Counted from the stretch's first letter, positions 10,507 to 38,383 are shown. The stretch is 45,333 nt of DNA from Candidatus Woesearchaeota archaeon (GCA_007117755.1 SKFY01000014.1:1-45333), one strand, 5' to 3'. The notes: generated by a model not told the origin, from the sequence alone. Program-made: numbers and translations.

Positions 10507-10533
10507 TTTAAAAAAAAAGTAATATGAATAAAA

Positions 10534-10797: not shown

Positions 10798-10817
10798 ATT
10801 ATTTGGTAGTGTATTTG

Positions 10818-25088: not shown

Positions 25089-26717
25089 TTAATTAAATAT
25101 AAATGCGAAGTTAATTCTGAAACTTTTAGCTCTTTCCCAAAAATCTACTTTGTTTTTGTAAATATCTTTATTATCTATTACGTGATTATTAGATGCGCAG
25201 AATAAATAATGATTTTTCGTAGGTTGACAAGCTGATTTATTTATTTGAGCTTCACGCATATAAACAGTGTTGTTTTTAACCAGTAATTCTTCTACTCTGC
25301 TTTCTGCTATGTGAAAAGGAAAATTAGTTATTCCCGTTATAGTATTTAGTTTTATACTCGTATTCGTATCAATACTCACTCCTTTAAAAGAAATCATTGA
25401 ATTGTTAAACTCTAAGGTATCCATATAACCAGGAAGTGTTATGTTACAGCTACAATTACCAATACTCGTACTACAGTCTTTTATTTGACGAGCAACATCA
25501 CCTAATAAATATTCTATTCTATAACTAGCATTTGTGTACTCTCCTGCTTTAAATTGATTAAAACGATTAGGTACAATATCTAAGGTTTGTGTTCCTGTTT
25601 GAACACCTCCTTCAATAACTTCTTCAACGTCTGAAACGTTCAGGAATTCTAATGCGACGCCATTATCATATATTAATTCAACATCTCTTTCAAAGTCAAC
25701 TATGAAGACTTCATCATAATAACTATTATTGAAATAAGCTCTTTCTCCACCACTACCTTCAATGAAATCTATTAATTCTCCAGTCACGACTAAGAAATCG
25801 TCATTTGTTGATAAATTCCCGAGATTATAATCGCTTAAAGGACAAGATCTTGAAATACTAACATTCCTATTTCTTTCCAAAACTTCTTGAACACAATTAT
25901 CATAATCATCATTACAACTAGCATGTAAATCATCAACGAAATCAAAAACATCATTATAAAACAATCTCAAACCCCTTATTACATGGGTAAAAGAATAATC
26001 CCCGCGCAACATACCCATAACGGATCCTGACCTTGCGGAAGCACCAACTACATTAGCATTTTCATCTAATAAGTAAATACTAGGGAACATATTGTTAATA
26101 CGATCATCTAAAGCAGATTCATAACTAGTCCTACCCACACCTGTGTATACACCTATTTCGCAACTACCTCTATAATTAGCACCTGAATCTTCTGCTTTAT
26201 ATATTCCGTTCCAATCATTTCCATCGCCCCAATAAATATACACATAACTATTGATGGGTATGTGACAATTAGAATTAGGATCGTCATTAACAGATATGGT
26301 GAATTTAGCAGCGGGATCTGTACGTGTACTAGTAACTCCTTTGTCGAAATCGGCTTCTACTGAGCTTTCTTGTTCAACATCACTTATTGAACGCAAAGAA
26401 TAAACACCTCTGTTTGAAAATCCTCCTATTTCTTGACACATAACGTCTTCAAAAAAACCTCTTTCTTCAAAAGGAATGAAACACCAACCCCTGACACTAG
26501 CATCGAATTCTTCTCCTTTACCAGTACTCCAGTCATCATAATCCTGTCTGTCAGGAGTGTAATAAATAACGCTTTTAATATTAGTAAAGCTAGGTAAAAC
26601 TTCATCATTTTCAATAGTAGATTCTATTTCTCTTATTTGTTCACTACTAATATCAGCCGCGACTAAGGGTAATAATAAAAGTAAAGCCACTAATATTATC
26701 ATACTTGTTTTTTTCAA
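25089..26717 (-). CDS. secreted MltA/3D-domain-like (double-psi beta-barrel) putative murein lytic transglycosylase with an unknown ~300-aa C-terminal region
   Basis: Sec-type signal MKKTSMIILVALLLLLPLVAAD. IYYTP...GFFEDVMCQEIGG resembles MltA (YYEP...FF.QIQGSG). SVNDDPNSNCHIPINSYVYI...YKAEDSGANYRGSCEIGVYTG resembles the 3D domain (VAVDP..IP.G..V.I...A.DTGGAI.G..IDI). The TTG start overlaps the amidase stop (TTGA), with GGAGG 7 nt upstream. Confidence 0.5.
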   Translation of the reverse strand: MKKTSMIILVALLLLLPLVAADISSEQIREIESTIENDEVLPSFTNIKSVIYYTPDRQDYDDWSTGKGEEFDASVRGWCFIPFEERGFFEDVMCQEIGGFSNRGVYSLRSISDVEQESSVEADFDKGVTSTRTDPAAKFTISVNDDPNSNCHIPINSYVYIYWGDGNDWNGIYKAEDSGANYRGSCEIGVYTGVGRTSYESALDDRINNMFPSIYLLDENANVVGASARSGSVMGMLRGDYSFTHVIRGLRLFYNDVFDFVDDLHASCNDDYDNCVQEVLERNRNVSISRSCPLSDYNLGNLSTNDDFLVVTGELIDFIEGSGGERAYFNNSYYDEVFIVDFERDVELIYDNGVALEFLNVSDVEEVIEGGVQTGTQTLDIVPNRFNQFKAGEYTNASYRIEYLLGDVARQIKDCSTSIGNCSCNITLPGYMDTLEFNNSMISFKGVSIDTNTSIKLNTITGITNFPFHIAESRVEELLVKNNTVYMREAQINKSACQPTKNHYLFCASNNHVIDNKDIYKNKVDFWERAKSFRINFAFIFN

Positions 26718-27877
26718 CTTAACTCCTCCATTAATCTGAAAACTTCCGAGTAATTAAAAGCTGGGCCCGGATCAGATTTTTGTCTGTTAATTTCATCATG
26801 ACCAATTATGTGATTCCTATCAACTCTTATATTAGGATGTCTTTCAATAATATCATTAATTAGCTCCGCAGTAGATCTTATTTGTTCGGGAGTGTAAGCT
26901 TCCCAGCATCTACGTTCTCCACTAAGTTGATGAGGTACGTTAGGATTGCCCAAGTAACAACTAGTTACGGGACACGTAGAGTGGGAATAACCACAGCCTA
27001 CTAAACTAATACCTATAGATCGGGAGTTATAACCCGCATCACAAACTTCTTCTGCATAACCTAAACAACCAGCATGATTCGCAACTTTATTTTCATCTAC
27101 AAATTGAAATACTTGACCGTCTTTGTCAATTACGTAATGATAACTGAAACGTCCTTTACCGCCGTTCCACAGAACATTAAAAGTTGAGTCTGCAGAGGTA
27201 GTTACTGTGTAATGCATAACTATGGTATCTACTTGGCCATGTCTAGTTGAGTATGTTAATCCGTCTCTTTGCATGTATCCCCTGCTATTTTCGTAATAAT
27301 CTGTACTTATTGGTTTTTTAAAAGTTATTCTATAATCTCTTAAATCTCTGTAAATAATTGTTTCTAATTGTGATAAGCTATCAATCCTTACTAAATAATC
27401 ATTATTTTTTCCTTCTATGTTTATTTCGTATCCTGGTTGTCTTAAATTACTGGGATGATTAGCAATTGTGGTATAAAAATAAGGTTCTAAATAGTTTGTG
27501 AAACTCTCTTCAATATCCGGTTTGCATTCATTGGTTATAATTGGGTAAATGAATTCTCCACATTCAAATTCTTCTATTTCATGTTCATATGCTTCAACGT
27601 GGTATCCTGAAAAATCATTCAGCACATTTATTGTTTGAGCACTAGCTATTTTCATTGATGAATCTAAATAATTAAATTTTTCTTGTTGCGCGTCATAGGC
27701 GTGCATAACGGATAATTGATTATAACCTATGAATTCTGTTTCTTCTAACGCGGTTAGTAGTAAAAAGAGTGCTCCTACGAAGAATAAGACGAAGGCGAGG
27801 ACTAAGAATAGTAAAGTAACTACGCCTTTTTTGTTATTTGGTGAGTTCCCCATAATTTTTTTTCCCATAAAAAACAT
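26714..27877 (-). CDS. N-acetylmuramoyl-L-alanine amidase (Amidase_2/PGRP fold) behind a class III signal/TM anchor
   Basis: C-terminal domain DTIVMHYTVT...FSYHYVIDKDGQVFQFVDENKVANHAG...YNSRSIGISLVG...YTPEQIRSTAELINDIIERH...IIGHDEI...KSDPGPAF matches the Amidase_2 consensus (H.T...sYHy.Id.dG.i.q.v....A.HAg..N..SIGIe..G...yT..Q...l..L......I.gH.e....K.DPGp.F). The N-terminus is ...NNKKG|VVTLLFLVLAFVLFFVGALFLLL. Confidence 0.8.
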   Translation of the reverse strand: MFFMGKKIMGNSPNNKKGVVTLLFLVLAFVLFFVGALFLLLTALEETEFIGYNQLSVMHAYDAQQEKFNYLDSSMKIASAQTINVLNDFSGYHVEAYEHEIEEFECGEFIYPIITNECKPDIEESFTNYLEPYFYTTIANHPSNLRQPGYEINIEGKNNDYLVRIDSLSQLETIIYRDLRDYRITFKKPISTDYYENSRGYMQRDGLTYSTRHGQVDTIVMHYTVTTSADSTFNVLWNGGKGRFSYHYVIDKDGQVFQFVDENKVANHAGCLGYAEEVCDAGYNSRSIGISLVGCGYSHSTCPVTSCYLGNPNVPHQLSGERRCWEAYTPEQIRSTAELINDIIERHPNIRVDRNHIIGHDEINRQKSDPGPAFNYSEVFRLMEELS

Positions 27878-27897
27878 CCTTTATTAATAACTTTTTT

Positions 27898-28440
27898 TTA
27901 ACGACCACCTCTAGAAGGTCTAGGAACGAAGTATTCTGAAATACTCCTAACATCATCACTTGGTTTTATTAGTGTTGCAATAAAATAATAATCTTCACCC
28001 ATCATATTAGGCGTTAATTGAGGTTGACCAAAATCTAAAAACCTATATTGAATAGGAGCTCCCTTGGTGCAATCAAAATCCTCATCTTCAACTTTTTTTA
28101 TCCTAAAAACTAATTCGTTCCTACGAGAAATGCCTACTTCCTCATGTACAAAATCACTTAGTTTTTCTTTGAAACTTTCACATTTGTCTTCGTTCATATA
28201 CTCTACTAATAAATCAGCTACTGTGTTATTATTATTAGTATTATTAACAGGTAATCTGACAAGTGAATTCGTGAATGTTTGAGATTCTAAAAGCTTAGCT
28301 TCAGCTAAAAACCTATTTTTATTTTCTTGAATAGAACTGTTAAGAACAAACATTAACACTATACCTATTAGTATTAACATACCGAGAGCCATGAAAGCCC
28401 CTAAAAACTTCTCCATAATACCTTTTTTTCCTAATATCAT
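27898..28440 (-). CDS. type IV pilin-like (class III signal) protein, function unknown
   Basis: N-terminus MILGKKG|IMEKFLGAFMALGMLILIGIVLMFV; 180 aa. Confidence 0.55.
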   Translation of the reverse strand: MILGKKGIMEKFLGAFMALGMLILIGIVLMFVLNSSIQENKNRFLAEAKLLESQTFTNSLVRLPVNNTNNNNTVADLLVEYMNEDKCESFKEKLSDFVHEEVGISRRNELVFRIKKVEDEDFDCTKGAPIQYRFLDFGQPQLTPNMMGEDYYFIATLIKPSDDVRSISEYFVPRPSRGGR

Positions 28441-28447
28441 TTTATTT

Positions 28448-28906
28448 TCATATGTATAAATACGTAATTTTTAAAACTCCTATGCTACCATTTATAAAAA
28501 CGGGATACTCGAAAAATAATTGGTCACCGGTTAATAAAACCATTACGTTCTCAGTCTCAACATAACCTGTTTGTAAATCACCTGAAGAGTTAAAATAAGA
28601 ATACTCCACTATTAAACCACCTTCGAAACGACTTTTTAAAGGAATACAATCTTTAAAGTCTTCCTCGTTAAACTTGTTTAAATCTATACTGCCAAAACCA
28701 TGATTTTCATCAATCAAACAGTCTCTTAACAAAACAGATTCATAAATCTGATATTGAACAACAGGAAAAACCCCACTAGATAACTCACTAATATTACCCG
28801 CGTAAGCTGTAGAGAAAGAAAAAACAATAAGTAAAAAAGGCAACACAACTAATAAGAAGTAAAATAAGTGGTCAGCTTCAGTCATACTTAAAACGCCTTT
28901 TTTCAA
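28448..28906 (-). CDS. type IV pilin-like (class III signal) protein, function unknown
   Basis: The TTG start overlaps the upstream stop (TTGA), with GGAGG 7 nt upstream. N-terminus (M)KKG|VLSMTEADHLFYFLLVVLPFLLIVF. Confidence 0.55.
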   Translation of the reverse strand: MKKGVLSMTEADHLFYFLLVVLPFLLIVFSFSTAYAGNISELSSGVFPVVQYQIYESVLLRDCLIDENHGFGSIDLNKFNEEDFKDCIPLKSRFEGGLIVEYSYFNSSGDLQTGYVETENVMVLLTGDQLFFEYPVFINGSIGVLKITYLYI

Positions 28907-29688
28907 TTTGTAACCTCCATTATCTCATCAGCTAATGAAAAACTATAACGACTACCACTATATTCGTTAGGTAACCAAATAACTAAGATGTTCTCCATAA
29001 TAACTTCTTCACGATAACTATTAACACCCATTTCCCTCATGTTAGCACCTAAAAAACAACCAAGTTTACGGTACTCGGGGAAACGCTCAGGATACCTGAC
29101 CATAAAAGGACCGTCATGAAGACCGATAAATAAAAGTATGTCTGCTTGATGATCAAAAGTAGGTATTGGATAACCGTTAAAACCGAGATGATGATTGAGA
29201 TTCTCCACGAAATTAAAACTACCAACACCTATAGAATTTACTTTTACAATCCTATTATCTAAAATACCTGGTAAACTATTACAAAAAGATCTTAATTCAC
29301 CAATATCTTTAATCCCGAATTCTAATTCATCACCTTGCCTATAAATAGGTAAAGTAACACCTCTTTGAGATGTGAAACCAATTACTTCAACACCAGTAAA
29401 AGTTCTGAACTCACTCACGTCACTACCTTCCAAACTAGAAACCCTTACGCTATCACTACTTACAACCTCTAACAAATAATTAGGTCCTGCGCTATAAACA
29501 ATTTCTACGTCGCTACGCGAAGCAGTAACGGACTCTATTAATAAAGCTAAATCCCTGCTGAATAATTCTTCTTGACTAGAAACGCCGTAGTTTAGAAGAT
29601 TCATCATGCCAAATAATATCAGAGCGCCTATAGCTACGTTAAAGCCAGTAAAGAAAACCATTTGAACAGAATTTCCTTTTTTATTCAT
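28903..29688 (-). CDS. type IV pilin-like (class III signal) protein, function unknown
   Basis: I prefer ATG 29688 (GGAGG 6 nt upstream, TAATG overlap with the upstream stop) to the track's TTG at 29715. N-terminus MNKKG|NSVQMVFFTGFNVAIGALILFGMM. Confidence 0.55.
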   Translation of the reverse strand: MNKKGNSVQMVFFTGFNVAIGALILFGMMNLLNYGVSSQEELFSRDLALLIESVTASRSDVEIVYSAGPNYLLEVVSSDSVRVSSLEGSDVSEFRTFTGVEVIGFTSQRGVTLPIYRQGDELEFGIKDIGELRSFCNSLPGILDNRIVKVNSIGVGSFNFVENLNHHLGFNGYPIPTFDHQADILLFIGLHDGPFMVRYPERFPEYRKLGCFLGANMREMGVNSYREEVIMENILVIWLPNEYSGSRYSFSLADEIMEVTN

Positions 29689-30386
29689 TAAGAACCTCCT
29701 GGTGTTGGAGAACAATTATTATCGGAAGAAAAGCAAAAACTAATAACACCACCTTCTTTTTTAGTTAAATAAAAATAAGAGTCACGCACGAGATCATGAC
29801 GGATGCCGAAACTGTTAGTCCATTTAGCAGTATCTGCATCTGGATCGACAACATCCGGATTGACAACATCCTGATCGTCAGGATAAGCATCTTCAAACAT
29901 TATTTCTTCTTCAATAACATAGTTTTCAAAGGACAAACAAGAATACTCGCTGCAAGAATACTCTATAGTAATCATCTCACCATGTCTTTCATTAAATCTT
30001 TGCACTCCTTGATTACATAAACAAATACACAGATTATTAGAGTCGCAAGAACTAGGTTTAAAATTGCTTGTTACATCAGAAAAAAGATGACGATTGCGCG
30101 AAATAGCCAAAGGACCAGGCTTATAATCATATTCACTATCAGGGTTTAAAAAAACTATTTTTGAATCAGGCTTTAAACTAAATCTGAAAGACTCCGTGGA
30201 GCCTTCATCCATGCTAATTAAAGTTTCTTCTAAATAATTCGTGAAAATTTCTAATTCTGTAGTATCCTCTCCGAAGAAATAACTTCCTAAACGAACAGTG
30301 AAAGTACAGGAAGCAATAAATAAAGACATAAATAAAACTAGGCTTAATATCCTAAAATACATAGTGCTAGTCTGTCCTTTTCTCAA
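29688..30386 (-). CDS. type IV pilin-like (class III signal) Cys-rich protein, function unknown
   Basis: TTG start with AGAGGT 8 nt upstream. N-terminus (M)RKG|QTSTMYFRILSLVLFMSLFIAS. It contains a Cys cluster SSCDSNNLCICLCNQG...YSCSEYSC. Confidence 0.55.
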   Translation of the reverse strand: MRKGQTSTMYFRILSLVLFMSLFIASCTFTVRLGSYFFGEDTTELEIFTNYLEETLISMDEGSTESFRFSLKPDSKIVFLNPDSEYDYKPGPLAISRNRHLFSDVTSNFKPSSCDSNNLCICLCNQGVQRFNERHGEMITIEYSCSEYSCLSFENYVIEEEIMFEDAYPDDQDVVNPDVVDPDADTAKWTNSFGIRHDLVRDSYFYLTKKEGGVISFCFSSDNNCSPTPGGS

Positions 30387-30393: not shown

Positions 30394-30567
30394 TTACCTC
30401 TTTATTAAAAAAAATATTAGTAGTCCTAAATCAACATCTCCCGCGCCTGCTATACCTTCTAATAATCCTCCGCTGTGGTTAAATGCGAGGTATCCTAGTA
30501 GTAAAACTAGCAGTCCTAACACGAAATATATTAGTTCTTGTATTCCTAATGCACCTTTTTTTTTCAT
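30394..30567 (-). CDS. mini pilin-like ORF (57 aa; not in ORF track)
   Basis: Hand translation gives MKKKGALGIQELIYFVLGLLVLLLGYLAFNHSGGLLEGIAGAGDVDLGLLIFFLIKR. Its N-terminus closely parallels that of the 590-aa protein (KKAMGIREVIYWLIGIV). Confidence 0.5.
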   Translation of the reverse strand: MKKKGALGIQELIYFVLGLLVLLLGYLAFNHSGGLLEGIAGAGDVDLGLLIFFLIKR

Positions 30568-30620
30568 CACGTCATCACCCTTGTTGTTAAGTTATTAAAT
30601 CTTTTAATTTTTAAAACTTT

Positions 30621-32012
30621 TTAATTAAGCTCATCAAATGAAATATAGCCATAATTATCAGCATAACTTGCTACATTGGAGTTAGGAGGCCCTATGAAGA
30701 TTACTTCACCATTACCTCTAAATGCATCCTCAAGAATCCTGGAAACATCACCTCTAAATATAACTTCATTTAAGTTATTATCATCAAAAGCTTTTTCTCC
30801 TATAAGTTCTAAACTTTCAGGGAATTCAACCCTTGTTAAATTATTTGATCTGAAAGCAAAATCCCTTATTTCTTCAATATTATTCCCGAATTTGACTTCA
30901 GACAATTCATTCATACTAAAAGCATGAATACCTATAGACTTAATACTGTCTCCAAATTCAACTTTTGATAACTTATTTTCACTGAAAGCACCACTTGGAA
31001 TAGTATCAATTGTATCAGGAAACTCTACAGACTCTAAGTTTTTACGTTTAAAAGCGTCCTGAGCAAGTGCAACAACCGTTCTACCATCTATTTCCCGAGG
31101 AATTACTAAACGGGTTTGTGGAGGTGCATAATCGCTGAAACCCCAAACCGCGATAGAATTATCCCCCCGTGCAGAATACATAAAAATGTTATAACCTGCT
31201 AAATTTCTAGAATTATCATCACAAAACGCATCGTGTTCTATCATCCTTTTTTTTAAAGTGACAACATCATCAAAATCAGTATCTAAGCAACCTGGTCTTA
31301 TAATATCCCTAATAATAGGCATTGTTCTAGCAGGATCCCTACAAGCTGTAACGTGAGCATTCACCACTCTTCTCCCAGTTACGGGAATGAAACAAATATT
31401 ATCCTGGTTTTTTAATATGTATAAAAAATAATTGTGTGAATATCTATAATTTATTTTTTTTTTTTTTTCTAAAAGTAAGCTTTCCCATTCTTCAAAAGAT
31501 AAACTTTCAACACGTGAAAAATCTATATTAGATGGATAAAGACCTCTATTATAATCCCTAATTTCATCATATAAAGATTTGGCTTCTTGTTCTCCATAAA
31601 CTACGCAAGGTTTTAAATCGTTAAATTCATGACGTTGTATTACATTCTCCCCACTATAAAGTTCTAAACGAGTTACTGAATTTTCCTCTTTTAAACTTAT
31701 AGAGAAATCATTGTCAAAAAAACTCTTGTGAAAAATATCAATTACTCCAAAACAAAAATTTTCATCAGACTCCACCACGTTTGTTAATTGATTGCGAAAA
31801 CCCGAGAATACATCCATAGCATCACGCTGATCCATAACTATAACTTCTCTACCCCCTCCGGATCTACTACGCTCAGAAAAATCTAAAAAATCAATTGCCC
31901 TATCAAAAGTAGGTAATAAGCCAGACTGTATACTGTTAAAGATGAATATTAAGAATAAGACTACTATAACTGCGGATACAAGCGTTACAGCACTCAAACC
32001 TTTTTTATTCAT
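30621..32012 (-). CDS. class III signal protein with C-terminal BspA-type leucine-rich repeats
   Basis: N-terminus MNKKG|LSAVTLVSAVIVVLFLIFIF. The C-terminal ~140 aa hold ~23-aa repeats (FPDTIDTIPSGAFSENKLSKVEF / GDSIKSIGIHAFSMNELSEVKF / GNNIEEIRDFAFRSNNLTRVEF / PESLELIGEKAFDDNNLNEVIF). Confidence 0.7.
   Translation of the reverse strand: MNKKGLSAVTLVSAVIVVLFLIFIFNSIQSGLLPTFDRAIDFLDFSERSRSGGGREVIVMDQRDAMDVFSGFRNQLTNVVESDENFCFGVIDIFHKSFFDNDFSISLKEENSVTRLELYSGENVIQRHEFNDLKPCVVYGEQEAKSLYDEIRDYNRGLYPSNIDFSRVESLSFEEWESLLLEKKKKINYRYSHNYFLYILKNQDNICFIPVTGRRVVNAHVTACRDPARTMPIIRDIIRPGCLDTDFDDVVTLKKRMIEHDAFCDDNSRNLAGYNIFMYSARGDNSIAVWGFSDYAPPQTRLVIPREIDGRTVVALAQDAFKRKNLESVEFPDTIDTIPSGAFSENKLSKVEFGDSIKSIGIHAFSMNELSEVKFGNNIEEIRDFAFRSNNLTRVEFPESLELIGEKAFDDNNLNEVIFRGDVSRILEDAFRGNGEVIFIGPPNSNVASYADNYGYISFDELN
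30692..31115 (-). repeat. protein-level LRR (BspA/LRR_5-type) repeat block inside the CDS
   Basis: About 5-6 units with the ..I..IG..AF....L..V.F periodicity. Confidence 0.65.
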
Positions 32013-32146
32013 CCGAACGTTACCTCTATCAAATTAAAAAATTCTCCACTTAATGTGTATATGAAATATATTATTACGGCAAGGGTAATAGCTATAGCAA
32101 CCCATTTTCCTAATTCACTAAATAATATATTGGCTTTTTTATTCAA
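32009..32146 (-). CDS. mini pilin-like ORF (45 aa, TTG start; not in ORF track)
   Basis: (M)NKKANILFSELGKWVAIAITLAVIIYFIYTLSGEFFNLIEVTFG. Its TTG overlaps the upstream stop (TTGAATAA) and its TGA overlaps the downstream ATG (ATGA). Length is 138 nt in frame. Confidence 0.45.
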   Translation of the reverse strand: MNKKANILFSELGKWVAIAITLAVIIYFIYTLSGEFFNLIEVTFG

Positions 32147-33473
32147 TTAAATCACACTCATCAAATATTTCACTAGCAGGAGCTATGATCAAAGCATTAT
32201 TACCTATTATGTCCGGACTGAATAATCTGTGATCACTGTCAAAAATTCTTTTGTACCACGCAGGTACGTCACTAGTGCTTACGAAAGCGACGTAGTAAGG
32301 AACAGATATGTTAATATCTTTTACGATAGGAGGGAATCTCATACCATCAGATATTTCAAACATGTAAGAATCACCAGGTATTACGTCAGAGCTTAAATCA
32401 GTTATTTTTAAAGTATCGTGAAGCTCTATTAAAGTATTTATTATAGCCTGGCCTAATTCTTGTACCGAAGAAACTTCAGAGCCTACTCCTTGATAGAAAT
32501 GTTTACTTAGTAAAGGTCTTATTTGTTCTCTTAATATTCTTGATTCATGATCACTGCCTATTAATAAACGCACTTCCTCATTTTGAATACCAAGCATTAA
32601 CATTACTCCTTGACGGGTAGATGCGTTATCTAATGCTATGTTATCAGCTATTTGTCTAGTTCGAGATAATGCTAAGCTATTGAATTCTTCAGCTACTACA
32701 ACAAATAAATCCCCTATGTTATCTTCTCTAAAATCCTGACCTAAACTTTGTATTTCGTTTAAAACATCATGGCTTAGTCTTCCAGAATAATCACTTACGT
32801 AAATGAAGTCGCTTTCATCAATTAATCGAGATCTTATACTTCTATGCATCAGGATTTCATGATCAGAAGGAGGACTTAAACGAGTTTGGAATTCGAAAGA
32901 AGCACTTATATACTCATAACTAGCTCCTCCTCTTAGTACTGGAGGATTATAAACTGTGTTCACCCAATAATTTACTACTTCTTCTGCAGAGATTGTTTTT
33001 TCATTACTATTACCCATATCAGGACGATAATCAATAGGGTAATCACTTATGTTACCTTCGAATTCATCCCCTATAAATCTGAATCTTGAACATACACCAC
33101 AAGCTTTTCCACTCTCCAGTCTTTGCTGTCCAAAAACGTCAAGTACTTGTCCGTCAGCGAATTTATACCAACACTCAGCAGCCAATTCACTTATAGTATT
33201 TAGAGCATCGTCCCTAGTGGATACTTCTACGTCTTTAGCTTCGCCAGTTTTACAAAATAAAGGAGGGAGTATGTCGTCTCCGAATATACCTATGTCTATA
33301 AAGTATCTGTCTCTTGCTAATACCGATTTTCTACACAATTCTATGTCTGCTGAGTCCGTAGCGGCTCTTATTATAGTTGCGTAGGCTATGCTGAGTATTC
33401 CACTAACTAATATTATTAATATTAAAACAACAAGTGTTTTCCTGGTTAATCCTTTTCTATACGCCAATACCAA
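32139..33473 (-). CDS. class III signal protein with a TPM-like domain
   Basis: N-terminus ...YRKG|LTRKTLVVLILIILVSGIL (TTG start at 33473 or 33467). The segment VSDYSGRLSHDVLNEIQSL...LFVVVAEEF...IADNIALDNASTRQGVMLMLGIQNEEVRLLIGSDHESRIL follows the TPM-domain pattern (V.D.A.lLs....l...l...i.vvtv....A..lf..w.iG....nGVLLLva..dR.vRIevGyGLE). Confidence 0.5.
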   Translation of the reverse strand: MVLAYRKGLTRKTLVVLILIILVSGILSIAYATIIRAATDSADIELCRKSVLARDRYFIDIGIFGDDILPPLFCKTGEAKDVEVSTRDDALNTISELAAECWYKFADGQVLDVFGQQRLESGKACGVCSRFRFIGDEFEGNISDYPIDYRPDMGNSNEKTISAEEVVNYWVNTVYNPPVLRGGASYEYISASFEFQTRLSPPSDHEILMHRSIRSRLIDESDFIYVSDYSGRLSHDVLNEIQSLGQDFREDNIGDLFVVVAEEFNSLALSRTRQIADNIALDNASTRQGVMLMLGIQNEEVRLLIGSDHESRILREQIRPLLSKHFYQGVGSEVSSVQELGQAIINTLIELHDTLKITDLSSDVIPGDSYMFEISDGMRFPPIVKDINISVPYYVAFVSTSDVPAWYKRIFDSDHRLFSPDIIGNNALIIAPASEIFDECDLIE

Positions 33474-33573
33474 TCACCCTGGCAGCTATTATTAGTATAG
33501 CTCCACATACTAAAATAGTTAATATAATTATCATTAATTGTTCTAAACTCATTAATCCTTTTTTTTTAACCAT
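33457..33573 (-). CDS. mini pilin-like ORF (38 aa; not in ORF track)
   Basis: MVKKKGLMSLEQLMIIILTILVCGAILIIAARVIGIGV is a class III-type N-terminus and helix only. Its 3' end overlaps the start of the next gene. Confidence 0.45.
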   Translation of the reverse strand: MVKKKGLMSLEQLMIIILTILVCGAILIIAARVIGIGV

Positions 33574-33623
33574 AACTTTCTCATTATGAATAGTCATAGA
33601 AGTGGTATTTAAAAGTTTCTTAA

Positions 33624-35396
33624 TCAGATAATATCAATGTATAATCTGTAATTATCTTGCACACTACTTCCTAGTTGGTTATATAGGCCAACGTTTAACG
33701 TGAATGTTTGTCCGGGTTCGGCACCTGGTATGCTTAAAGGGTTTAAATCTTTACAATCTTTATAAGATATGGTAGTGTCTACCCCGGGTCCTGTTAATGA
33801 TCCTGAACACTTAGCCGTATAATAATCATTTTCAATCCCGAAACTTATGTCTACATGATTATCAAAAGGCGGGTTTAAAGAGGCAGTGACTGTTTTTGTT
33901 CTTTGATTATTCATCTCGTAATCAACACTATTAACTCTAAATGTTAAATAAGGAGGATCTGTTATTACGTTAAAATACCTTCTTTGTTCGTCTACTATTG
34001 TCGCGTCTTCTCGTAATATCGTGATTAATTGATATCTTCCTATATCATCAGATCTTAAAGTTATGAAGTCGCTTAATGATAATTCGCTAGAACAACTACT
34101 TGTATCTCCCCAGACTTCTTGACCTTCTTGGTTTTGTATAGAGTAAGAACAAGTAAGTTCTTCATGGCTTCCAGTATATTTGACAGCGAGTGTTAAAACT
34201 ACTTCTTCGTCTGAAGAAACAGGTATTTCCGCAGGGAATGATTGGAAGTCTAGTAAGTCTTCATAATCGTCTATGCCGAATAAAGTGTATAATCGTGGAG
34301 ATTCAAAACTAGAATCTCTTGTTTGTAAAACCACTCTATACGTTGCTAGTTGAGAAGTGGTTTCTTCTCCGAATAATCTGAAAATTAGTTCATACTCAGC
34401 GTCTCTGATAAAGTTTTCAACATCATAATTTATTCTTATAGGTAATAACATTAAGTTTGAACAGCCTGAAATATCACTTCCTAAAAGATTTTGTGGAGAG
34501 CCAGCTTCGTTTAGTTTCCAGAAGTGGTAACCGCATTGTTTTACATTACTACCTTTGATATTGCTAACTTCTAAAAACACACTACTTAAAAACTCGCTAT
34601 CTTGTTTTAACTTTACTAAATCCACAGGTATTGTATTAACAGCTTCTTTTGAAAGGTGTATTGTTCTTCCATAAAGTTTAAAATCTGCACTAGCAGGAGT
34701 TACTATTTGAGGAGGCGGAGGAGGAGTTACAGGTTCAATAGTTGTCTCATCTGTTACTTCAGGAGGTTCTTCATCCGGAGGTATTACTGTGAAAGGTATT
34801 ATTACACTAGTCAGTATTTCTTCTTCTACACTAACTATTACTGTGAGTGTGTAAGAACCTACTTCTTCTTGAGAAAGACGGAATGTGTTATTGAAAATTT
34901 CTTCATTTTCATCTGTTTTAATGCTCGCTGTATAGTTCCAAGACATGTTGTTAGAAGCTATTCTACCATTGGAATCAGTCATTCTAATACTAAGATTGAA
35001 TTCTCGTATGTTATCAACCCATAATTCATAAGTGTAATTATTAGGAACTTGCAGTGTTTGTCTTTGATTATGCCTTACGACTTCATTATCTTCTTTTCTA
35101 ATTTGTATAATAGGAGGATCTTGAGTATCTACAGGCCTTCCTCCTGGTCTGAAATTAGTAGCGTTTACACAACATACTTGATTGGGGACGATGCTACCGT
35201 CTGATAATTTACATTGAGAAGAAGCTCTTATTTCTTGAGGTCCGCAAGAGTCCCTGCATTCTCCTGGGCAAATGCTTATTTGGTCTCCGAAGGGATCCCA
35301 GGCTTGGTATATACCGTATAAGATAGTTGTGAAAATAACTATGCCTATAAGCCAGTATATTACTTCTCTAATACCCATGGCTTTTTTGTTTAGCAT
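33624..35396 (-). CDS. large pilin-like (class III signal) protein: six-Cys knob, beta-rich repeats and a Pro-rich linker
   Basis: N-terminus MLNKKA|MGIREVIYWLIGIVIFTTILYG. Then ICPGECRDSCGPQEIRASSQCKLSDGSIVPNQVCCVN and the Pro-rich PPDEEPPEVTDETTIEPVTPPPPPQIVTP. Length is 590 aa. Confidence 0.6.
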   Translation of the reverse strand: MLNKKAMGIREVIYWLIGIVIFTTILYGIYQAWDPFGDQISICPGECRDSCGPQEIRASSQCKLSDGSIVPNQVCCVNATNFRPGGRPVDTQDPPIIQIRKEDNEVVRHNQRQTLQVPNNYTYELWVDNIREFNLSIRMTDSNGRIASNNMSWNYTASIKTDENEEIFNNTFRLSQEEVGSYTLTVIVSVEEEILTSVIIPFTVIPPDEEPPEVTDETTIEPVTPPPPPQIVTPASADFKLYGRTIHLSKEAVNTIPVDLVKLKQDSEFLSSVFLEVSNIKGSNVKQCGYHFWKLNEAGSPQNLLGSDISGCSNLMLLPIRINYDVENFIRDAEYELIFRLFGEETTSQLATYRVVLQTRDSSFESPRLYTLFGIDDYEDLLDFQSFPAEIPVSSDEEVVLTLAVKYTGSHEELTCSYSIQNQEGQEVWGDTSSCSSELSLSDFITLRSDDIGRYQLITILREDATIVDEQRRYFNVITDPPYLTFRVNSVDYEMNNQRTKTVTASLNPPFDNHVDISFGIENDYYTAKCSGSLTGPGVDTTISYKDCKDLNPLSIPGAEPGQTFTLNVGLYNQLGSSVQDNYRLYIDII

Positions 35397-35403: not shown

Positions 35404-35643
35404 TCAACCCCCTACATGACAACAATAAGGACGATTAGGTTGACAACTATTATCACCATCAGGTAAATGAGCAGGTCCGCAGAATTCGGCTTGACACCTA
35501 CCTCCTAATCTGCTACAAGAAGCCGCGTCGTCCCAGCCATCCGCTGTGGTAAAGAATATATAAATCAGAGTTACCATAACTAACAGAGCTATTATTACAA
35601 CAACGACTGTAGTTATGGTTAATTCTGCTTTTTTATTTATCAT
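35404..35643 (-). CDS. small type IV pilin-like protein with a six-cysteine knob (candidate major subunit)
   Basis: 79 aa. MINKKA|ELTITTVVVVIIALLVMVTLIYIFF, then SCSRLGGRCQAEFCGPAHLPDGDNSCQPNRPYCCHVGG. Confidence 0.6.
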   Translation of the reverse strand: MINKKAELTITTVVVVIIALLVMVTLIYIFFTTADGWDDAASCSRLGGRCQAEFCGPAHLPDGDNSCQPNRPYCCHVGG

Positions 35644-35668
35644 ACTTTTGACAACTCACTTCTTTTTA

Positions 35669-35935
35669 TTATTGTGGTACACAACAAACTTCTCCATCAG
35701 GACATGAATAGCTAGGAGCTCTAACGTACGTAACATCTGGATTAGCTAGTGTTAATTCTTCACAACCTAGTTCTACTGGTTGACACTGAGCATCTCTTTC
35801 TAGAGAAACACATCTAGTTCCTTCGAAGACACTAGAACCTGCATTGAATACTAAAACTGCTAATATAACAAGTACTATCATAGCTAACGCCGCTGCTACG
35901 ACAACATTAAGACTTAATTCTGCTTTTTTAAACAT
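35669..35935 (-). CDS. small type IV pilin-like protein with a six-cysteine knob (candidate major subunit)
   Basis: 88 aa. MFKKA|ELSLNVVVAAALAMIVLVILAVLVF, then RCVSLERDAQCQPVELGCEELT...YSCPDGEVCCVPQ. GAGGTG lies 7 nt upstream of the ATG. Confidence 0.6.
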   Translation of the reverse strand: MFKKAELSLNVVVAAALAMIVLVILAVLVFNAGSSVFEGTRCVSLERDAQCQPVELGCEELTLANPDVTYVRAPSYSCPDGEVCCVPQ

Positions 35936-36011: not shown

Positions 36012-36527
36012 TTATGTGCAGATTCTTATTTTAAAAAATACTACGACGTTGGTAAAACCTTCCCTTACGTTTTTAGGCGTGAATAATTCAAAACCTTGCC
36101 TGTTTTCAGCACATTCATTGGCTAAATAAGTTATTGTTCCAGAAGGACTTGTACGACTCACATTTATAAAGTATCTTAAGCCATACTCGTCAAAAGTATC
36201 ACCTACCATTTCTTTAAGAGTATCGTTAAAAAAAACACAAGCATCATAATAATCCCCGCATTCAAAAGTAGGCAGATCAAGTATACATTGTTCTAATACT
36301 TCACCCATATTTTTTTGTTTATCATTAGCGTCTTTACAAACAGTTTCGCTGTTAAAAAAAGCCGTTGCGAAATTCTCAATTAATTGACGTTCAGCAAAGG
36401 AATCATCGGGAGCCACCGATGAATCAGAAGAGTCTAATAAGAATACTAGTACGAAAAATAAAACTAGTGTTATTAATATAACTATTATTAACAAACCTAC
36501 TATTTCCATCTGGCTTTTTTTTCTCAT
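36012..36527 (-). CDS. type IV pilin-like (class III signal) protein, minor-pilin candidate
   Basis: MRKKS|QMEIVGLLIIVILITLVLFFVLVFLL. Its ATG overlaps the upstream stop (ATGA). Confidence 0.55.
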   Translation of the reverse strand: MRKKSQMEIVGLLIIVILITLVLFFVLVFLLDSSDSSVAPDDSFAERQLIENFATAFFNSETVCKDANDKQKNMGEVLEQCILDLPTFECGDYYDACVFFNDTLKEMVGDTFDEYGLRYFINVSRTSPSGTITYLANECAENRQGFELFTPKNVREGFTNVVVFFKIRICT

Positions 36528-37003
36528 TGAACACTAACCTCTAATATTGCAAAATAAGTTTTTTTATCTACGGGATGATAAACATTAATTGGATAAAAAG
36601 TTCTTTCTATACGCCTATTTTCTTGTAAATTATCAAAGAAGTTTATTGATTCATTGATTTGAAGAGTGGTGTTTAAATCATCATATATTATCAATGTTAA
36701 GTTAACATTGCCCATTCTTCTTATGTAATAAGGGTCGTCTTGTAAATTCTTAAAAGCTTTAACTTTAAAATAATCAAAGCATTTGTAACCTATAGTAGCT
36801 ACTTCACTTGTACAAGTGAATTCTTCCATGTTAGATATTCTTAAACTGGTGCTTAAAATGTCTAGATCAGACTCGTCTTCTAGTAAAGATTGTGTCTGGG
36901 TAGTTCTGAAATTGGATAAATAAACTAATCCTATGATTATTAAAATCATTACTATTATAACTACGGTTATTGATTCCCCGCTTTGAATTTGTGCTTTTTT
37001 CAT
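36524..37003 (-). CDS. type IV pilin-like (class III signal) protein, minor-pilin candidate
   Basis: MKKA|QIQSGESITVVIIVMILIIIGLVYL; 159 aa. Confidence 0.55.
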   Translation of the reverse strand: MKKAQIQSGESITVVIIVMILIIIGLVYLSNFRTTQTQSLLEDESDLDILSTSLRISNMEEFTCTSEVATIGYKCFDYFKVKAFKNLQDDPYYIRRMGNVNLTLIIYDDLNTTLQINESINFFDNLQENRRIERTFYPINVYHPVDKKTYFAILEVSVQ

Positions 37004-37027
37004 TATTAACTAATCCTTATTTGTTTT

Positions 37028-37876
37028 TTAATATATTCTTGGAAGATTACGGTTTCTTAAAAGATCATTAACCGAAGCCAATTCATTCCTATTAGCAGGA
37101 CTCGGTATTTCTTCTTCTTCAAATATAGGTAGTACTTGGTGATAAAAAGTTATGCTTACCGATTCGTTTAATTCGTAAGTCCTATTGTAATAAACTTTAT
37201 TTATAGCCCTAGTTCTTTCCTGTATTTTATCCATTGTGCAATTAAATAAATCTTCATCACCAGTTATTATAAAACCCATTTTTAAAACATCAATATCAAT
37301 ACCTTCATATTCAACTCCATTAACAACCAAATCATCACCTGTTACGTCTATGTTTATAACATCTCTAAAACCAGGAGGAACATAATTTAACGACTTGGAT
37401 ATTTCACCCGGGAACAAATCAAAATAATACTTTGCATCATTTGAAAAGTTATAATGCGTCATGTTATCAACTAAAAAAGTCACTCTCCCCACAGGATAAG
37501 GCACATTTAAAACAGTAGACCAACTTATTAATCTAGACTCCCCCACCCTAGGAGGAGAAAACAATAAGTCTTGTTCTAAATGAACACTACCCACACTATT
37601 TTCTAAAGAAAACCTATGACCATCAATACCACAAGAAAATATGAGTAAACGATTAAAAGGAGTCGTGGATATCCTAACACTATCCACACTAGACTCGTAA
37701 GAACTCAGAACAATACTCATTCTTTCCATCACAGTCCTTCCTAATTGATCAGAAGTAGCATCAGTTTCGAAACTAATGACGTTATAAAACAATACTAATA
37801 TCGCAGCTCCAGCTACTAATACGAACACCCAATTAAAAGATATTTCTATTTGAGCTTTATTAAACATGAAAACCAT
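37028..37876 (-). CDS. type IV pilin-like (class III signal) protein, minor-pilin candidate
   Basis: MVFMFNKA|QIEISFNWVFVLVAGAAILVLFY. AGGTGAAGG lies upstream of ATG 37876. An alternative ATG is at 37867. Confidence 0.55.
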   Translation of the reverse strand: MVFMFNKAQIEISFNWVFVLVAGAAILVLFYNVISFETDATSDQLGRTVMERMSIVLSSYESSVDSVRISTTPFNRLLIFSCGIDGHRFSLENSVGSVHLEQDLLFSPPRVGESRLISWSTVLNVPYPVGRVTFLVDNMTHYNFSNDAKYYFDLFPGEISKSLNYVPPGFRDVINIDVTGDDLVVNGVEYEGIDIDVLKMGFIITGDEDLFNCTMDKIQERTRAINKVYYNRTYELNESVSITFYHQVLPIFEEEEIPSPANRNELASVNDLLRNRNLPRIY

Positions 37877-37912
37877 TATAAAACCTTCACCTTAAAAAAT
37901 TTTTTTTATTAA

Positions 37913-38383
37913 TTATTCATCAACACTAATCACGACTTCTCCACGATGACCAAGCATGACAAAAGATATGCTACCCACAGAGGATTCTGCACAAGTAATA
38001 TTTTGCCCAGCATATAAATTATCAAATCGTAACGCGTCAATTAAAATGTTATCATCAAATAAGAATATGTTATTATGATCATCAAGACTTAACTCAGTCC
38101 CTATTATATCAGTCGCAGCAAGATCATGCGCCCCGCCTTCATCGTTATTTGCGAAACAAACACTACTTATATAATTAGATCTGTACTCAACATCCCTAAC
38201 ACTACCATGACTAGTAGTCCTAGACAAATCCCTTAATAAGTCAGATTTTAAACGAACCAGTTCGACTTCTTCACCCCTATCTAAAATATTAATAATACTC
38301 CTATAACCAACTAATAATAAAGCACCAACTACTAATATAACCATTAAATAAATAAAAACTTGTTGAACTTGTGATTTTCTCAT
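37913..38383 (-). CDS. type IV pilin-like (class III signal) protein, minor-pilin candidate
   Basis: MRKS|QVQQVFIYLMVILVVGALLLVGY. It starts 1 nt after the stop of the giant gene. Confidence 0.55.
   Translation of the reverse strand: MRKSQVQQVFIYLMVILVVGALLLVGYRSIINILDRGEEVELVRLKSDLLRDLSRTTSHGSVRDVEYRSNYISSVCFANNDEGGAHDLAATDIIGTELSLDDHNNIFLFDDNILIDALRFDNLYAGQNITCAESSVGSISFVMLGHRGEVVISVDE

What the first reader, a model, noticed from the sequence alone, without database searches (positions are those of the whole stretch)
30394..33573. Three unannotated mini-ORFs (38, 45 and 57 aa) that are little more than a class III signal plus helix, interleaved with the large pilin-like genes
The ORFs are 33457-33573 (MVKKKG|LMSLEQLMIIILTILVCGAILIIAARVIGIGV), 32009-32146 (TTG; NKKA|NILFSELGKWVAIAITLAVIIYFIY...) and 30394-30567 (MKKKG|ALGIQELIYFVLGLLVLLLGY...). 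They fill what would otherwise be the only sizeable 'intergenic' gaps of the array. Two of the three overlap a neighbouring gene's start or stop codon, and the third sits 7 nt upstream of the next start. All three and the 590-aa protein share a Glu at +5 or +6 after the predicted cleavage site (SLEQL, FSEL, IQEL, IREV), reminiscent of the Glu5 of bacterial type IV pilins. The 57-aa ORF's N-terminus nearly copies that of the 590-aa protein (GIQELIYFVLG versus GIREVIYWLIG). They may be headless pilins (spacers, primers or caps), or remnants.
Basis: seen in the sequence. Interest (0 to 1): 0.64.

Follow-up and report, generated by a model that had tools for sequence, protein, structure and literature searches.

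The report
Conserved headless pilin-like mini-genes in archaeon
Three tiny genes (38, 45 and 57 codons) wedged between large surface-protein genes of a soda-lake archaeon are real and conserved, and each encodes little more than a pilin-type signal plus one hydrophobic helix, most likely small adapter subunits of a pilus-like surface structure.

Summary
All three ORFs exist at the stated coordinates, on the minus strand. They fill the three largest gaps of a roughly 20-gene array of proteins with class-III (prepilin-type) N-termini, and they overlap or abut their neighbours as described.

They are genes, not remnants. All three recur at the same positions in three other diverged genomes whose flanking proteins are only 25-53% identical. 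The third (m3) recurs in two further genomes. Only the sense frame is open in every orthologue. For window versus the closest relative, dN/dS is 0.22, 0.47 and 0.15, against 0.26-0.30 for the flanks. Evidence is strongest for m3 and weaker for m1 and m2.

The m3 N-terminus is homologous to neighbouring small Cys-knob pilin-like proteins, and it aligns in register with archaellin leader and helix. A conserved TATA-like box sits 20-32 nt upstream of m1, which suggests m1 opens the transcription unit.

No Pfam, NCBIfam or PHROG family matches. No pilus ATPase, platform protein or peptidase lies in the sequence held. No RNA or peptide evidence exists.

The best reading is helix-only minor "adapter/spacer" pilins, analogous to KilK/KilO of Myxococcus. 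This function is inferred, not shown. It is a new variant of a known kind, of moderate interest.

The parts
33457..33573 (-). m1: 38-aa gene, MVKKKG|LMSLEQLMIIILTILVCGAILIIAARVIGIGV. The predicted mature part is 32 aa, GRAVY 2.3, with no polar tail. It is the first gene of the predicted transcription unit.
   Evidence: ORF. Orthologues of 34-39 aa sit at the same position in L001, L008 and L010. dN/dS versus L001 is 0.22, p=2e-4. Only the sense frame is open. Hydropathy.
33606..33618 (-). BRE/TATA-like element AAACTTTTAAATA upstream of m1. Its 3' end lies 32 nt before ATG 33573 and only 8 nt before the alternative ATG 33597.
   Evidence: The same element (AAWCTTTWWAWWA) lies 20-23 nt upstream of the m1 ATG in L001, L008 and L010. 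It has a single match in the window, but chance expectation is 1.7, so only the positional conservation counts. Promoter function is inferred.
32009..32146 (-). m2: 45-aa gene with a TTG start, (M)NKKA|NILFSELGKWVAIAITLAVIIYFIYTLSGEFFNLIEVTFG. It overlaps the stop of the 444-aa gene and the start of the 463-aa gene (ATGA).
   Evidence: ORF. Orthologues of 44-45 aa in L001 (TTG), L008 (ATG) and L010 (TTG). A clear Shine-Dalgarno-like (SD-like) motif precedes it in L008 and L010; the motif is weaker in L001 and the window. dN/dS versus L001 is 0.47, p=0.03. Only the sense frame is open. Not called in public gene calls for the window contig.
30394..30567 (-). m3: 57-aa gene, MKKKG|ALGIQELIYFVLGLLVLLLGYLAFNHSGGLLEGIAGAGDVDLGLLIFFLIKR. 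It has a GGGTGA SD-like motif 7 nt upstream and ends 7 nt before the 232-aa gene.
   Evidence: ORF. Five orthologues of 58-62 aa. pN<pS in all 15 pairs, p from 9e-3 down to 1e-13. HHalign to the Cys-knob pilin family gives 97%, E=4e-11. Best PDB sequence hits are archaellin N-termini 5z1l and 5o4u. AF2 predicts helix 9-40, a break, then helix 47-56, mean pLDDT 70.
32139..33473 (-). 444-aa (442 aa from TTG 33467) protein with a class-III-like N-terminus and a TPM-like domain. It is the conserved partner gene between m1 and m2.
   Evidence: Pfam TPM_phosphatase, 23.7 bits. Orthologues P0002 and P0011 and the L010 455-aa protein. GGGTGA sits 6 nt before TTG 33467. The AF2 model is unusable apart from the N-terminal helix.
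30621..32012 (-). 463-aa protein with a class-III-like N-terminus and a C-terminal BspA-type LRR_5 domain, lying between m2 and m3.
   Evidence: Pfam LRR_5, E=1.5e-27. Orthologues of 275-291 aa lack the LRR part.
29688..30386 (-). 232-aa protein with a class-III-like N-terminus (MRKGQ|TSTMYFRIL...), directly downstream of m3.
   Evidence: ORF and GAGGT SD-like motif. Orthologues follow m3 in L001, L005, L008 and L010.
33624..35396 (-). 590-aa protein. Its N-terminal ~95 aa form a Cys-knob small pilin-like module, followed by a ~500-aa extension.
   Evidence: Alignment with the 79- and 88-aa genes, the L008 90/84/91-aa genes and P0010. The positional orthologue in L008 is only 91 aa.
35404..35935 (-). 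Two tandem small Cys-knob pilin-like genes (79 aa, 35404-35643; 88 aa, 35669-35935). They are candidate filament-forming subunits with their own TATA-like box and SD-like motif.
   Evidence: ORFs. Family alignment with conserved C...C...C...CC-V. Upstream sequence. Homologous to the m3 N-terminus.
36012..38383 (-). Four class-III-like genes with Gln at +1 (171, 159, 282 and 156 aa).
   Evidence: ORFs and motif scan. Orthologues in L008.
25089..29688 (-). Downstream conserved part of the array. It holds the 261-, 152- and 180-aa class-III-like proteins, the 387-aa Amidase_2 protein with a class-III-like N-terminus (26714-27877), and the 542-aa Sec-signal protein (25089-26717).
   Evidence: Pfam Amidase_2, E=9e-30. 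PHROG endolysin/amidase hits. Same gene order in L001, L005, L008 and L010. Orthologues of the last gene carry a 3D domain, PF06725.

Best explanation
m1, m2 and m3 are three distinct, vertically conserved protein-coding genes. Each encodes a 'headless' type IV pilin-like protein. Each has a short Lys-rich leader ending in Gly or Ala, which is the position where archaeal prepilin peptidases cut. The predicted mature peptide that follows is 32, 40 or 52 aa and consists essentially of one hydrophobic alpha-helix.

They belong to a conserved operon-like array: promoter, m1, 444, m2, 463, m3, 232, and onwards to an amidase. In this array they alternate with, and are translationally coupled to, proteins that have the same kind of N-terminus but carry bulky heads (TPM-like, LRR adhesin, peptidoglycan amidase).

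Proposed mechanism:
- After Sec insertion and leader removal, the mini-helices pack with the N-terminal helices of the big-headed subunits in the hydrophobic core of a tip/priming complex or a short pseudopilus.
- There they act as minor 'adapter/spacer' subunits. They occupy lattice positions that bulky heads cannot fill on consecutive subunits, and they couple the complex to a filament.
- That filament is probably built from the separately promoted 79/88-aa Cys-knob pilins.

What is shown: gene reality, conservation, architecture, and homology of m3 to headed pilin-like proteins.

What is inferred: leader cleavage, incorporation into a filament, and the adapter role.

My separate estimates are: real genes 0.9; class-III/pilin-like nature 0.7; adapter/spacer minor-pilin role 0.35-0.4.
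For: **Conservation.**
- All three are present at the same positions in L001, L008 and L010. m3 is also present in L005 and L007. Flanking proteins are only 25-53% identical.
- Only the sense frame is open in every orthologue.
- dN/dS for window versus L001 is 0.22, 0.47 and 0.15, against 0.26 and 0.30 for the flanks. m3 has pN<pS in 15 of 15 pairs.
- The indels that separate m1 and m3 orthologues are whole codons, so the frame is kept.

**Class-III context.**
- 14 motif-positive ORFs lie in the array, against 1 elsewhere in 45 kb.
- The -1 G/A and -2 K/R residues agree with the published rule (PMC4371748).
- The m3 profile's only PDB hits are archaellins. They align from the KKG|A cleavage site and include the +3 Gly (+3 Gly rule from PMC4390842).
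- The m3 family matches the Cys-knob pilin family at HHalign probability 97%, in register from Met1.

**Points favouring a minor rather than a major subunit.**
- Mature m1 is 29-32 aa with GRAVY about 2 and no polar tail. Helix-only Tad pilins need a polar C-terminal patch to form the filament surface (PMC10710030).
- There are three separate orthologous families, each tied to a specific large gene, with overlapping start and stop codons.
- In L008, m1 stays with the 444 homologue even though the upstream half of the array is split off by inserted genes.
- Headed small pilins next door have their own TATA-like box and SD-like motif.

**Precedent.** The helix-only Flp-type minor pilins KilK and KilO (KilO is 59 aa) are adapters for large-headed tip complexes in the Myxococcus Kil pilus (PMC12075869).
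Against: - No TFF ATPase, platform protein or prepilin peptidase lies in the 45-kb window or in 21 kb of the related contig.
- There is no hit to Pfam, NCBIfam or PHROG pilin models, even at E<=10.
- m1 and m2 show no convincing homology to m3 or to known pilins.
- In distant pairs, m1 and m2 retain little more than hydrophobic-helix character, and pN/pS approaches 1.
- m2 has an invariant Lys inside its helix, and the window copy has Asn at +1, which is atypical.
- A K-rich N-terminus followed by one TM helix is also the signature of any N-in single-pass membrane protein.
- There is no transcript or peptide evidence.
- Complex modelling could not be run.
Confidence: 0.42

Rival explanations
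1. The mini-proteins are membrane-resident small subunits. They are single-pass helices, cleaved or not, that stay in the cytoplasmic membrane. There they serve as anchors, chaperones or assembly co-factors for the neighbouring large class-III proteins, in a bindosome-like, non-filamentous surface layer, and they are never extracted into a fibre.
For: m1 is a pure TM helix with no polar tail. No filament machinery is in view. Tight 1:1 translational coupling to large partners. m1 and m2 conserve helix character more than sequence. Class-III-signal binding proteins that may decorate, rather than build, filaments are widespread in archaea (bioRxiv 10.64898/2026.04.22.720090).
Against: m3 shares its leader and helix with headed pilin-like proteins and with archaellins, including the cleavage-site context. 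All neighbours carry the same motif, which argues for a common processing and assembly route.
Confidence: 0.27
2. The mini-proteins are the major, filament-forming pilins, in the manner of Flp/Tad pilins or Methanococcus EpdE. The large proteins would be minor or tip subunits.
For: Helix-only major pilins of 40-60 aa exist (PMC10710030). EpdE is about 6.4 kDa mature (PMC4390842). Small ~70-aa major pilins are typical of clade-1 archaeal T4P (PMC4858521). m3 (52 aa mature) has a partly polar Gly-rich tail. m1 sits first behind a TATA-like box.
Against: m1 has no polar surface at all. There are three different families rather than paralogous copies of one, and they are embedded in and coupled to large genes. 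There is no Flp motif, no PF04964 hit and no hit to PDB Tad pilin sequences. The tandem Cys-knob pilins with their own promoter-like element are better candidates.
Confidence: 0.13
3. The ORFs are decayed remnants of pilin genes, or chance ORFs in AT-rich spacers.
For: They are very short. m2 uses TTG and gene callers miss it. No family hits.
Against: They are positionally conserved with an intact frame in 4-6 genomes whose flanks are about 70% diverged. Only the sense frame is open. dN/dS is below 1. SD-like motifs are present.
Confidence: 0.03
4. The mini-proteins are holin-like or spanin-like small membrane proteins that release the adjacent peptidoglycan amidase, as in a lysis cassette.
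For: The array contains an Amidase_2 with endolysin-type PHROG hits. m3 has a TM helix plus a short second hydrophobic segment and a basic end.
Against: The minis give no PHROG holin hit. The amidase lies six genes from m3 and further from m1 and m2, and it carries its own class-III-like anchor. The locus is a conserved chromosomal array next to RPA-like and ABC-transporter genes, not a prophage.
Confidence: 0.03

Closest known systems
KilK / KilO, Flp-type helix-only minor 'adapter' pilins of the Myxococcus xanthus Kil (Tad-like) pilus (PMC12075869)
   Same: They are fully alpha-helical (KilO is 59 aa), with a leader and a cleavage motif. KilO is encoded inside a cluster of large-headed minor pilins. 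Each is functionally tied to specific tip complexes. The apparatus serves contact-dependent attack on bacteria, and the array here also carries peptidoglycan hydrolase domains.
   Different: They are bacterial. No sequence similarity was detected. The minis here are 38-57 aa as precursors, so mature m1 is about half the size of KilO. There are three per locus, strictly interleaved one-to-one with large genes. The adapter role here is inferred only.
Flp/Tad major pilins, e.g. Caulobacter crescentus PilA, PDB 8U1K (PMC10710030)
   Same: They have no globular head. They are 40-60 residues and form a continuous helix with archaeal-type packing. The Tad system is thought to be of archaeal origin.
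   Different: Flp pilins carry the G|xxxxEY Flp motif and a polar C-terminal patch that forms the filament surface. The minis lack the motif and give no PF04964 or PDB hit. m1 has no polar patch. Flp genes lie in tad loci alongside the machinery.
EpdE and other small (~60-70 aa) archaeal major pilins of the Epd / clade-1 ('system 1') pili (PMC4390842, PMC4858521, PMC4371748)
   Same: They are archaeal, very small, and have a 12-aa-type leader. They have Gln at +1, as do most m3 orthologues and many array neighbours, and Glu near +5.
   Different: EpdE-type pilins are usually stand-alone genes, glycosylated, and have a polar C-terminal half. The minis are shorter (29-58 aa mature) and embedded in an operon. 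m1, m2 and the window copy of m3 lack Gln at +1.
Geobacter sulfurreducens PilA-N, the helix-only half of a split pilin (discussed in PMC10710030)
   Same: A helix-only pilin gene lies adjacent to a gene for a globular partner.
   Different: PilA-C has no helix of its own and supplies the head for PilA-N. Here every large neighbour has its own class-III leader and helix, so this is not a gene fission of one pilin.
Archaellin N-terminal leader and helix (PDB 5z1l, 5o4u)
   Same: The m3 profile aligns in register with it (KKG|A.GI..LI.F), including Gly at +3.
   Different: Archaellins have a ~170-aa beta-rich head and belong to fla loci. The similarity covers only the first ~35-55 residues, at E=0.008-0.12.

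Membership tests
Archaeal type IV pilin-like / class III signal peptide proteins | Short charged leader with G/A/S at -1 and a charged residue at -2, with the processing site preceding the H-domain (rule as stated in PMC4371748) | tested here: met
   m1 KKG|L, m2 KKA|N, m3 KKG|A. Orthologues show KKA|M, KTA|M, KGA|T, KKA|E, KKA|S, KKA|Q and KRG|Q. The L008 m2 copy (NRNG|E) has the charge at -3.
Archaeal type IV pilin-like / class III signal peptide proteins | Hydrophobic H-domain of about 20 residues or more directly after the site, predicted to be helical | tested here: met
   Hydropathy. AF2 predicts helix 9-40 for m3. m2 carries one invariant Lys at about +9.
Archaeal type IV pilin-like / class III signal peptide proteins | Match to curated N-terminal pilin profiles (Pfam Pilin_N or Class_IIIsignal; NCBIfam archaeal flagellin/pilin N-terminal models) | tested here: not met
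   No such family is reported for any mini or for the larger neighbours, even at E<=10.
Archaeal type IV pilin-like / class III signal peptide proteins | Detectable homology to bona fide TFF subunits | tested here: inconclusive
   m3: archaellins are the only PDB hits (E=0.008 and 0.12, in register), and HHalign to the headed Cys-knob family gives 97%. m1 and m2: nothing significant.
Archaeal type IV pilin-like / class III signal peptide proteins | Genomic association with a TFF ATPase, platform protein and class III signal peptidase | tested here: inconclusive
   None was found in the 45-kb window or in the related loci, including 21 kb of the 81-kb contig. The rest of the genomes could not be reached.
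Archaeal type IV pilin-like / class III signal peptide proteins | Leader actually removed by PibD/FlaK/EppA, and the protein found in a filament | not testable with these tools
   Needs MS or biochemistry. The one metatranscriptome from the same study does not cover the locus.
Flp/Tad pilins (Pfam Flp_Fap) | Flp motif (G|xxxxEY followed by a hydrophobic stretch) and a profile match | tested here: not met
   No Flp_Fap hit at E<=10. No PDB Tad pilin hit at E<=10. Glu is at +5/+6, but no Tyr follows it directly.
Flp/Tad pilins (Pfam Flp_Fap) | Helix-only subunit of 40-60 aa with a polar C-terminal patch that forms the filament surface (PMC10710030) | tested here: inconclusive
   m2 (40 aa) and m3 (52 aa) fit the size and have mildly polar tails. 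m1 (32 aa, GRAVY 2.3) has none.
EppA-dependent (Epd-type) pilins | Gln at +1 (required by EppA) and Glu at +5 (PMC4371748, PMC4390842) | tested here: not met
   The window minis have L, N and A at +1. Four of six m3 orthologues, and five larger array genes, do have Gln at +1. Glu is at +5 in m1 and at +6 in m2 and m3.
Phage-type holins | Match to holin families, and adjacency to an endolysin within a mobile lysis cassette | tested here: not met
   No PHROG lysis hit for the minis. The locus is chromosomal and syntenic across genomes.

The most novel reading that the evidence does not exclude
The minis would be obligate 'spacer' pilins and the smallest type IV filament subunits known (m1: 29-32 aa mature, helix only, no polar surface). 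Their job would be to fill alternate lattice positions, so that several 230-590-aa heads, including adhesin and peptidoglycan-hydrolase domains, can be stacked on one pilus or pseudopilus. A small soda-lake archaeon would use this structure to attach to and breach bacterial cells. The gene order (mini-large-mini-large-mini-large) would encode the assembly order.
Probability: 0.2. Interest if true: 0.75.

Novelty: new variant of a known kind. Interest (0 to 1): 0.5.

Why it matters
Helix-only pilins are known as major subunits (Flp/Tad, EpdE). They were shown only recently to act as adapter minor pilins, in one bacterial predator.

Here three separate families of even smaller helix-only proteins are conserved in an archaeal array, alternating one-to-one with bulky-headed class-III proteins. 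If they are adapters or spacers, they would show how type IV filament machines can display very large or enzymatic cargo domains. They would also extend the lower size limit of a pilin to about 30 residues.

There are practical lessons too. Gene callers and family databases miss them: m2 is not called, and none has a family. Archaeal pilin censuses that rely on profiles or length cut-offs therefore undercount such components. The association with peptidoglycan hydrolases that carry pilin-type signals also bears on how archaea attack bacteria.

Tried and rejected
- **Homologues of the 444-aa flank.** A word-indexed search of 5.8 billion proteins found only one relative with the single sequence, and nothing new with a 4-sequence profile.
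- **Collection scans.** The GTDB genome scan returned only the same contig. Two scans of JGI metagenomes, one with the 444 alignment and one with the m3 alignment, returned nothing.
- **m3 searches.** The word-indexed search with the m3 profile found only itself and L001. Only the exhaustive HMMER search found the wider family.
- **Expression evidence.** The only RNA run from the same study holds no real coverage of the locus, so there is no evidence either way.
- **Family libraries.** Pfam, NCBIfam and PHROG scans of the minis gave only sub-threshold noise, such as AcrZ, TRIQK and MgtR.
- **PDB hit for m1.** The Pf3 coat protein matches at E=0.34. I treated this as chance.
- **AF2 of the 444-aa protein.** With a 3-sequence alignment the mean pLDDT was 46. 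I judged it unusable and ran no fold search.
- **PDB search with the Cys-knob family.** Noise only.
- **Reaching further along the 81-kb contig for pilus machinery.** The permitted look-up added only 2.5 kb, all of it giant-protein gene.
- **TATA-like motif.** As a pattern it is not over-represented in the window: 1 match found, 1.7 expected. Only its positional conservation is used.
- **m2 as a frameshifted C-terminal TM extension of the 444-aa protein.** I considered this and rejected it. The L008 orthologue has its own ATG and SD-like motif, and all orthologues begin with the same leader type as the neighbouring genes.

Full report
**Context.** The window is an archaeal chromosome fragment. 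It carries archaeal SRP RNA at 10528-10802 and archaeal RNase P RNA at 20591-20898. GC is 26-38% in 2-kb windows. The sequence comes from a soda-lake metagenome.

From 25.1 to 45.3 kb the minus strand carries about 20 co-directional genes. Nearly all begin with a short Lys/Arg-rich leader ending in G, A or S, followed by a long uncharged hydrophobic stretch. A crude motif scan finds 14 such ORFs inside the array. It finds one false positive elsewhere and none on the plus strand. The heads are diverse:
- a TPM-like domain in the 444-aa protein;
- BspA-type LRR_5 in the 463-aa protein;
- Amidase_2 in the 387-aa protein;
- small Cys-rich knobs in the 79- and 88-aa proteins.

**Observation.** The three ORFs are exactly where the finding places them, on the minus strand.
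- They fill the three largest inter-gene gaps (150, 126 and 234 nt; the next largest is 76 nt).
- The m1 stop lies inside the start of the 444-aa gene.
- m2 overlaps the 444-aa gene's stop by 8 nt and the 463-aa gene's start through ATGA.
- m3 ends 7 nt before the 232-aa gene.
- Public gene calls on the identical contig include m1 (as 46 aa) and m3, but not m2.

The 444-aa flank has very few relatives anywhere. Its one close homologue is 51% identical and lies on L001. On that contig all three minis sit at the same positions with intact frames and in-frame indels.

An exhaustive HMMER search with the m3 profile found four more small proteins of 60-74 aa. Their contigs are syntenic with the window over the whole array and beyond it, as far as the RPA-like gene and the ABC transporter. 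In L008 and L010, where the flanking proteins are only 25-31% identical to the window's, m1 (34 and 36 aa), m2 (44 and 45 aa) and m3 are all present in place.

Only the sense frame is stop-free in every orthologue.

Nei-Gojobori dN/dS for window versus L001 is:
- m1: 0.22 (p=2e-4);
- m2: 0.47 (p=0.03);
- m3: 0.15 (p=2e-7);
- flanks: 0.26 and 0.30.

m3 shows pN<pS in all 15 pairs. For m1 and m2 the signal fades in distant pairs, where synonymous sites are saturated. What persists there is length, position, leader type and helix hydrophobicity. The evidence is therefore strong for m3 and good but weaker for m1 and m2. The 'remnant' reading is rejected.

**Expression signals.** SD-like GGTGA/GAGGT motifs precede m3, the 442/444-aa gene (at TTG 33467), the 463-aa gene and the 232-aa gene. 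They are clear before m2 in L008 and L010, and weaker in L001 and the window.

m1 has no SD-like motif. Instead, a BRE/TATA-like element (AAWCTTTWWAWWA) lies upstream of the m1 ATG in all four genomes: 20-23 nt in L001, L008 and L010, and 32 nt in the window. In the window it sits only 8 nt before the alternative ATG at 33597. This favours the 38-aa start at 33573 over the 46-aa public call. It also suggests that m1 opens a transcription unit with a short or absent leader.

As a bare pattern the motif is not rarer than chance in the window, so promoter function is an inference from positional conservation. In L008 the upstream half of the array is separated from m1 by two inserted opposite-strand genes (malic enzyme and a methionine sulfoxide reductase), yet m1 stays with the 444 homologue. 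There are no RNA data for the locus.

**What the products are.** Assuming cleavage after the G or A, the mature peptides are 32, 40 and 52 aa.
- m1 is a bare hydrophobic helix, with GRAVY 1.8-2.3 in all orthologues and no polar tail.
- m2 has a 15-17-aa amphipathic tail.
- m3 has a Gly-rich linker and a short second helix.

The m3 family has an almost invariant G-I-x-E-[LIM]-I-Y-x3-G-L-L-V-L-L-L-G-Y helix. Its only PDB sequence matches are the archaellins 5z1l (E=0.008) and 5o4u. These align from the KKG|A site and include the Gly at +3 that is characteristic of archaellins (PMC4390842).

HHalign relates the m3 family to the neighbouring Cys-knob small-pilin family at 97% probability (E=4e-11), in register from Met1. 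That family comprises the 79- and 88-aa genes, the N-terminus of the 590-aa protein, three L008 genes and P0010. One caveat applies: P0010 entered that alignment through the m3 search.

m1 relates only weakly to m3 (40%), and m2 not at all. No Pfam, NCBIfam or PHROG model matches any mini. The Glu at +5/+6 is invariant only in m3.

**Mechanism.** I commit to helix-only minor pilin-like subunits that pack with the N-terminal helices of the bulky-headed proteins, as adapters or spacers in a tip/priming complex or short pseudopilus. The 79/88-aa Cys-knob proteins, which have their own TATA-like box and SD-like motif, would be the likelier filament builders. The reasons are:
- m1 cannot be solvent-exposed. 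Helix-only Tad pilins need a polar C-terminal patch (PMC10710030).
- There are three distinct orthologous families, each coupled to one large gene.
- There is a precedent in KilK/KilO, helix-only Flp-type minor pilins that adapt large-headed tip complexes to the Myxococcus Kil pilus (PMC12075869).

Not shown:
- Cleavage and incorporation into a filament have not been observed.
- The existence of the machinery is unconfirmed. No ATPase, platform protein or peptidase lies in the window or in L015.

The main rival is that the minis remain in the membrane as anchors or assembly co-factors of a bindosome-like layer. Major-pilin, remnant and holin readings are less likely, for the reasons given under the rival explanations.

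**Comparison and novelty.** The minis work most like KilK/KilO and resemble Flp pilins and EpdE in being headless. They fail the sequence-based membership tests for Flp_Fap and for curated archaeal pilin N-terminal families. Only m3 can be tied by homology to TFF subunits.

Several features are not described in the sources I could search (PMC4858521; bioRxiv 10.64898/2026.04.22.720090):
- the very small size;
- the strict one-to-one interleaving with large class-III proteins;
- conservation as three separate families.

This is a new variant of a known kind, and interest is moderate.

Noticed in passing
window 26714-27877 (-); orthologues in L001 5831-6922, L005 3116-4123, L010 5547-6638: An N-acetylmuramoyl-L-alanine amidase (Amidase_2, E=9e-30, with endolysin-type PHROG hits) carries a class-III/pilin-like N-terminus and is a conserved member of the array. 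A recent survey of archaeal peptidoglycan hydrolases reported only Sec and Tat signal peptides (PMC12352652), so pilin-type delivery of a peptidoglycan hydrolase may have been overlooked.
   Followed up: partly
window 25089-26717 (-); L008 13880-15601; L010 6631-8268: The last gene of the array (542 aa, Sec-type signal) has orthologues carrying a 3D domain (PF06725, typical of lytic transglycosylase/Rpf-type proteins). The window copy gave no Pfam hit at E<=0.1.
   Followed up: no
window 33624-35396 (-) versus L008 5267-5542: The 590-aa protein is a Cys-knob small pilin (first ~95 aa) fused to a ~500-aa extension. Its positional orthologue in L008 is a plain 91-aa Cys-knob pilin. This looks like head-domain accretion on a pilin scaffold.
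   Followed up: partly
window 30621-31150 (-), the C-terminal part of the 463-aa gene: The BspA-type LRR_5 domain is specific to the window. Orthologues in L001, L008 and L010 are 275-291 aa and stop before it. This indicates modular gain or loss of an adhesin domain.
   Followed up: partly
window 38385-45284 (-); L015 1-4744: A giant 2299-aa repetitive surface protein heads the array. It has Cys-rich EGF-like repeats, a C-terminal TM helix and a Ser/Lys-rich tail. In the related contig two genes of 1186 aa (cut off at the locus end) and 1004 aa occupy this position.
   Followed up: no
N-terminal helices: m3 (window 30394-30567), 232-aa gene (29688-30386), m2 (32009-32146): Charged residues sit inside the hydrophobic helices. 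Glu at +6 is invariant in m3. Arg at +7/+8 is conserved in 4 of 5 members of the downstream 232-aa family. Lys at about +9 is invariant in m2. These could form inter-helix salt bridges, but that is pure speculation.
   Followed up: no
L008 5664-7326 (minus strand of the locus): In one relative, malic enzyme and methionine sulfoxide reductase genes are inserted on the opposite strand. The insertion lies exactly between the Cys-knob pilin genes and the TATA-like box of m1, consistent with a transcription-unit boundary there.
   Followed up: partly
L001/L004 (GCA_964484835.1, contig CAZAFP010000030.1): The only named relative is labelled 'uncultured Methanosarcinales archaeon' (a MAG). The low GC and gene content of these loci made me suspect a DPANN-type organism or a mis-binned 7-kb contig. 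Taxonomy was not resolved.
   Followed up: no
L012 92-1990, L013 1250-3148: P0010 has an m3-like helix plus a Cys knob. It lies in tandem arrays of 84-86-aa paralogues next to a Peptidase_M23 gene, another peptidoglycan hydrolase type. This suggests a recurring pilin-hydrolase association.
   Followed up: no
window 10528-10802 (-) and 20591-20898 (-): Archaeal SRP RNA (146.7 bits) and archaeal RNase P RNA (124.6 bits). No tRNA genes were found in the 45 kb.
   Followed up: yes
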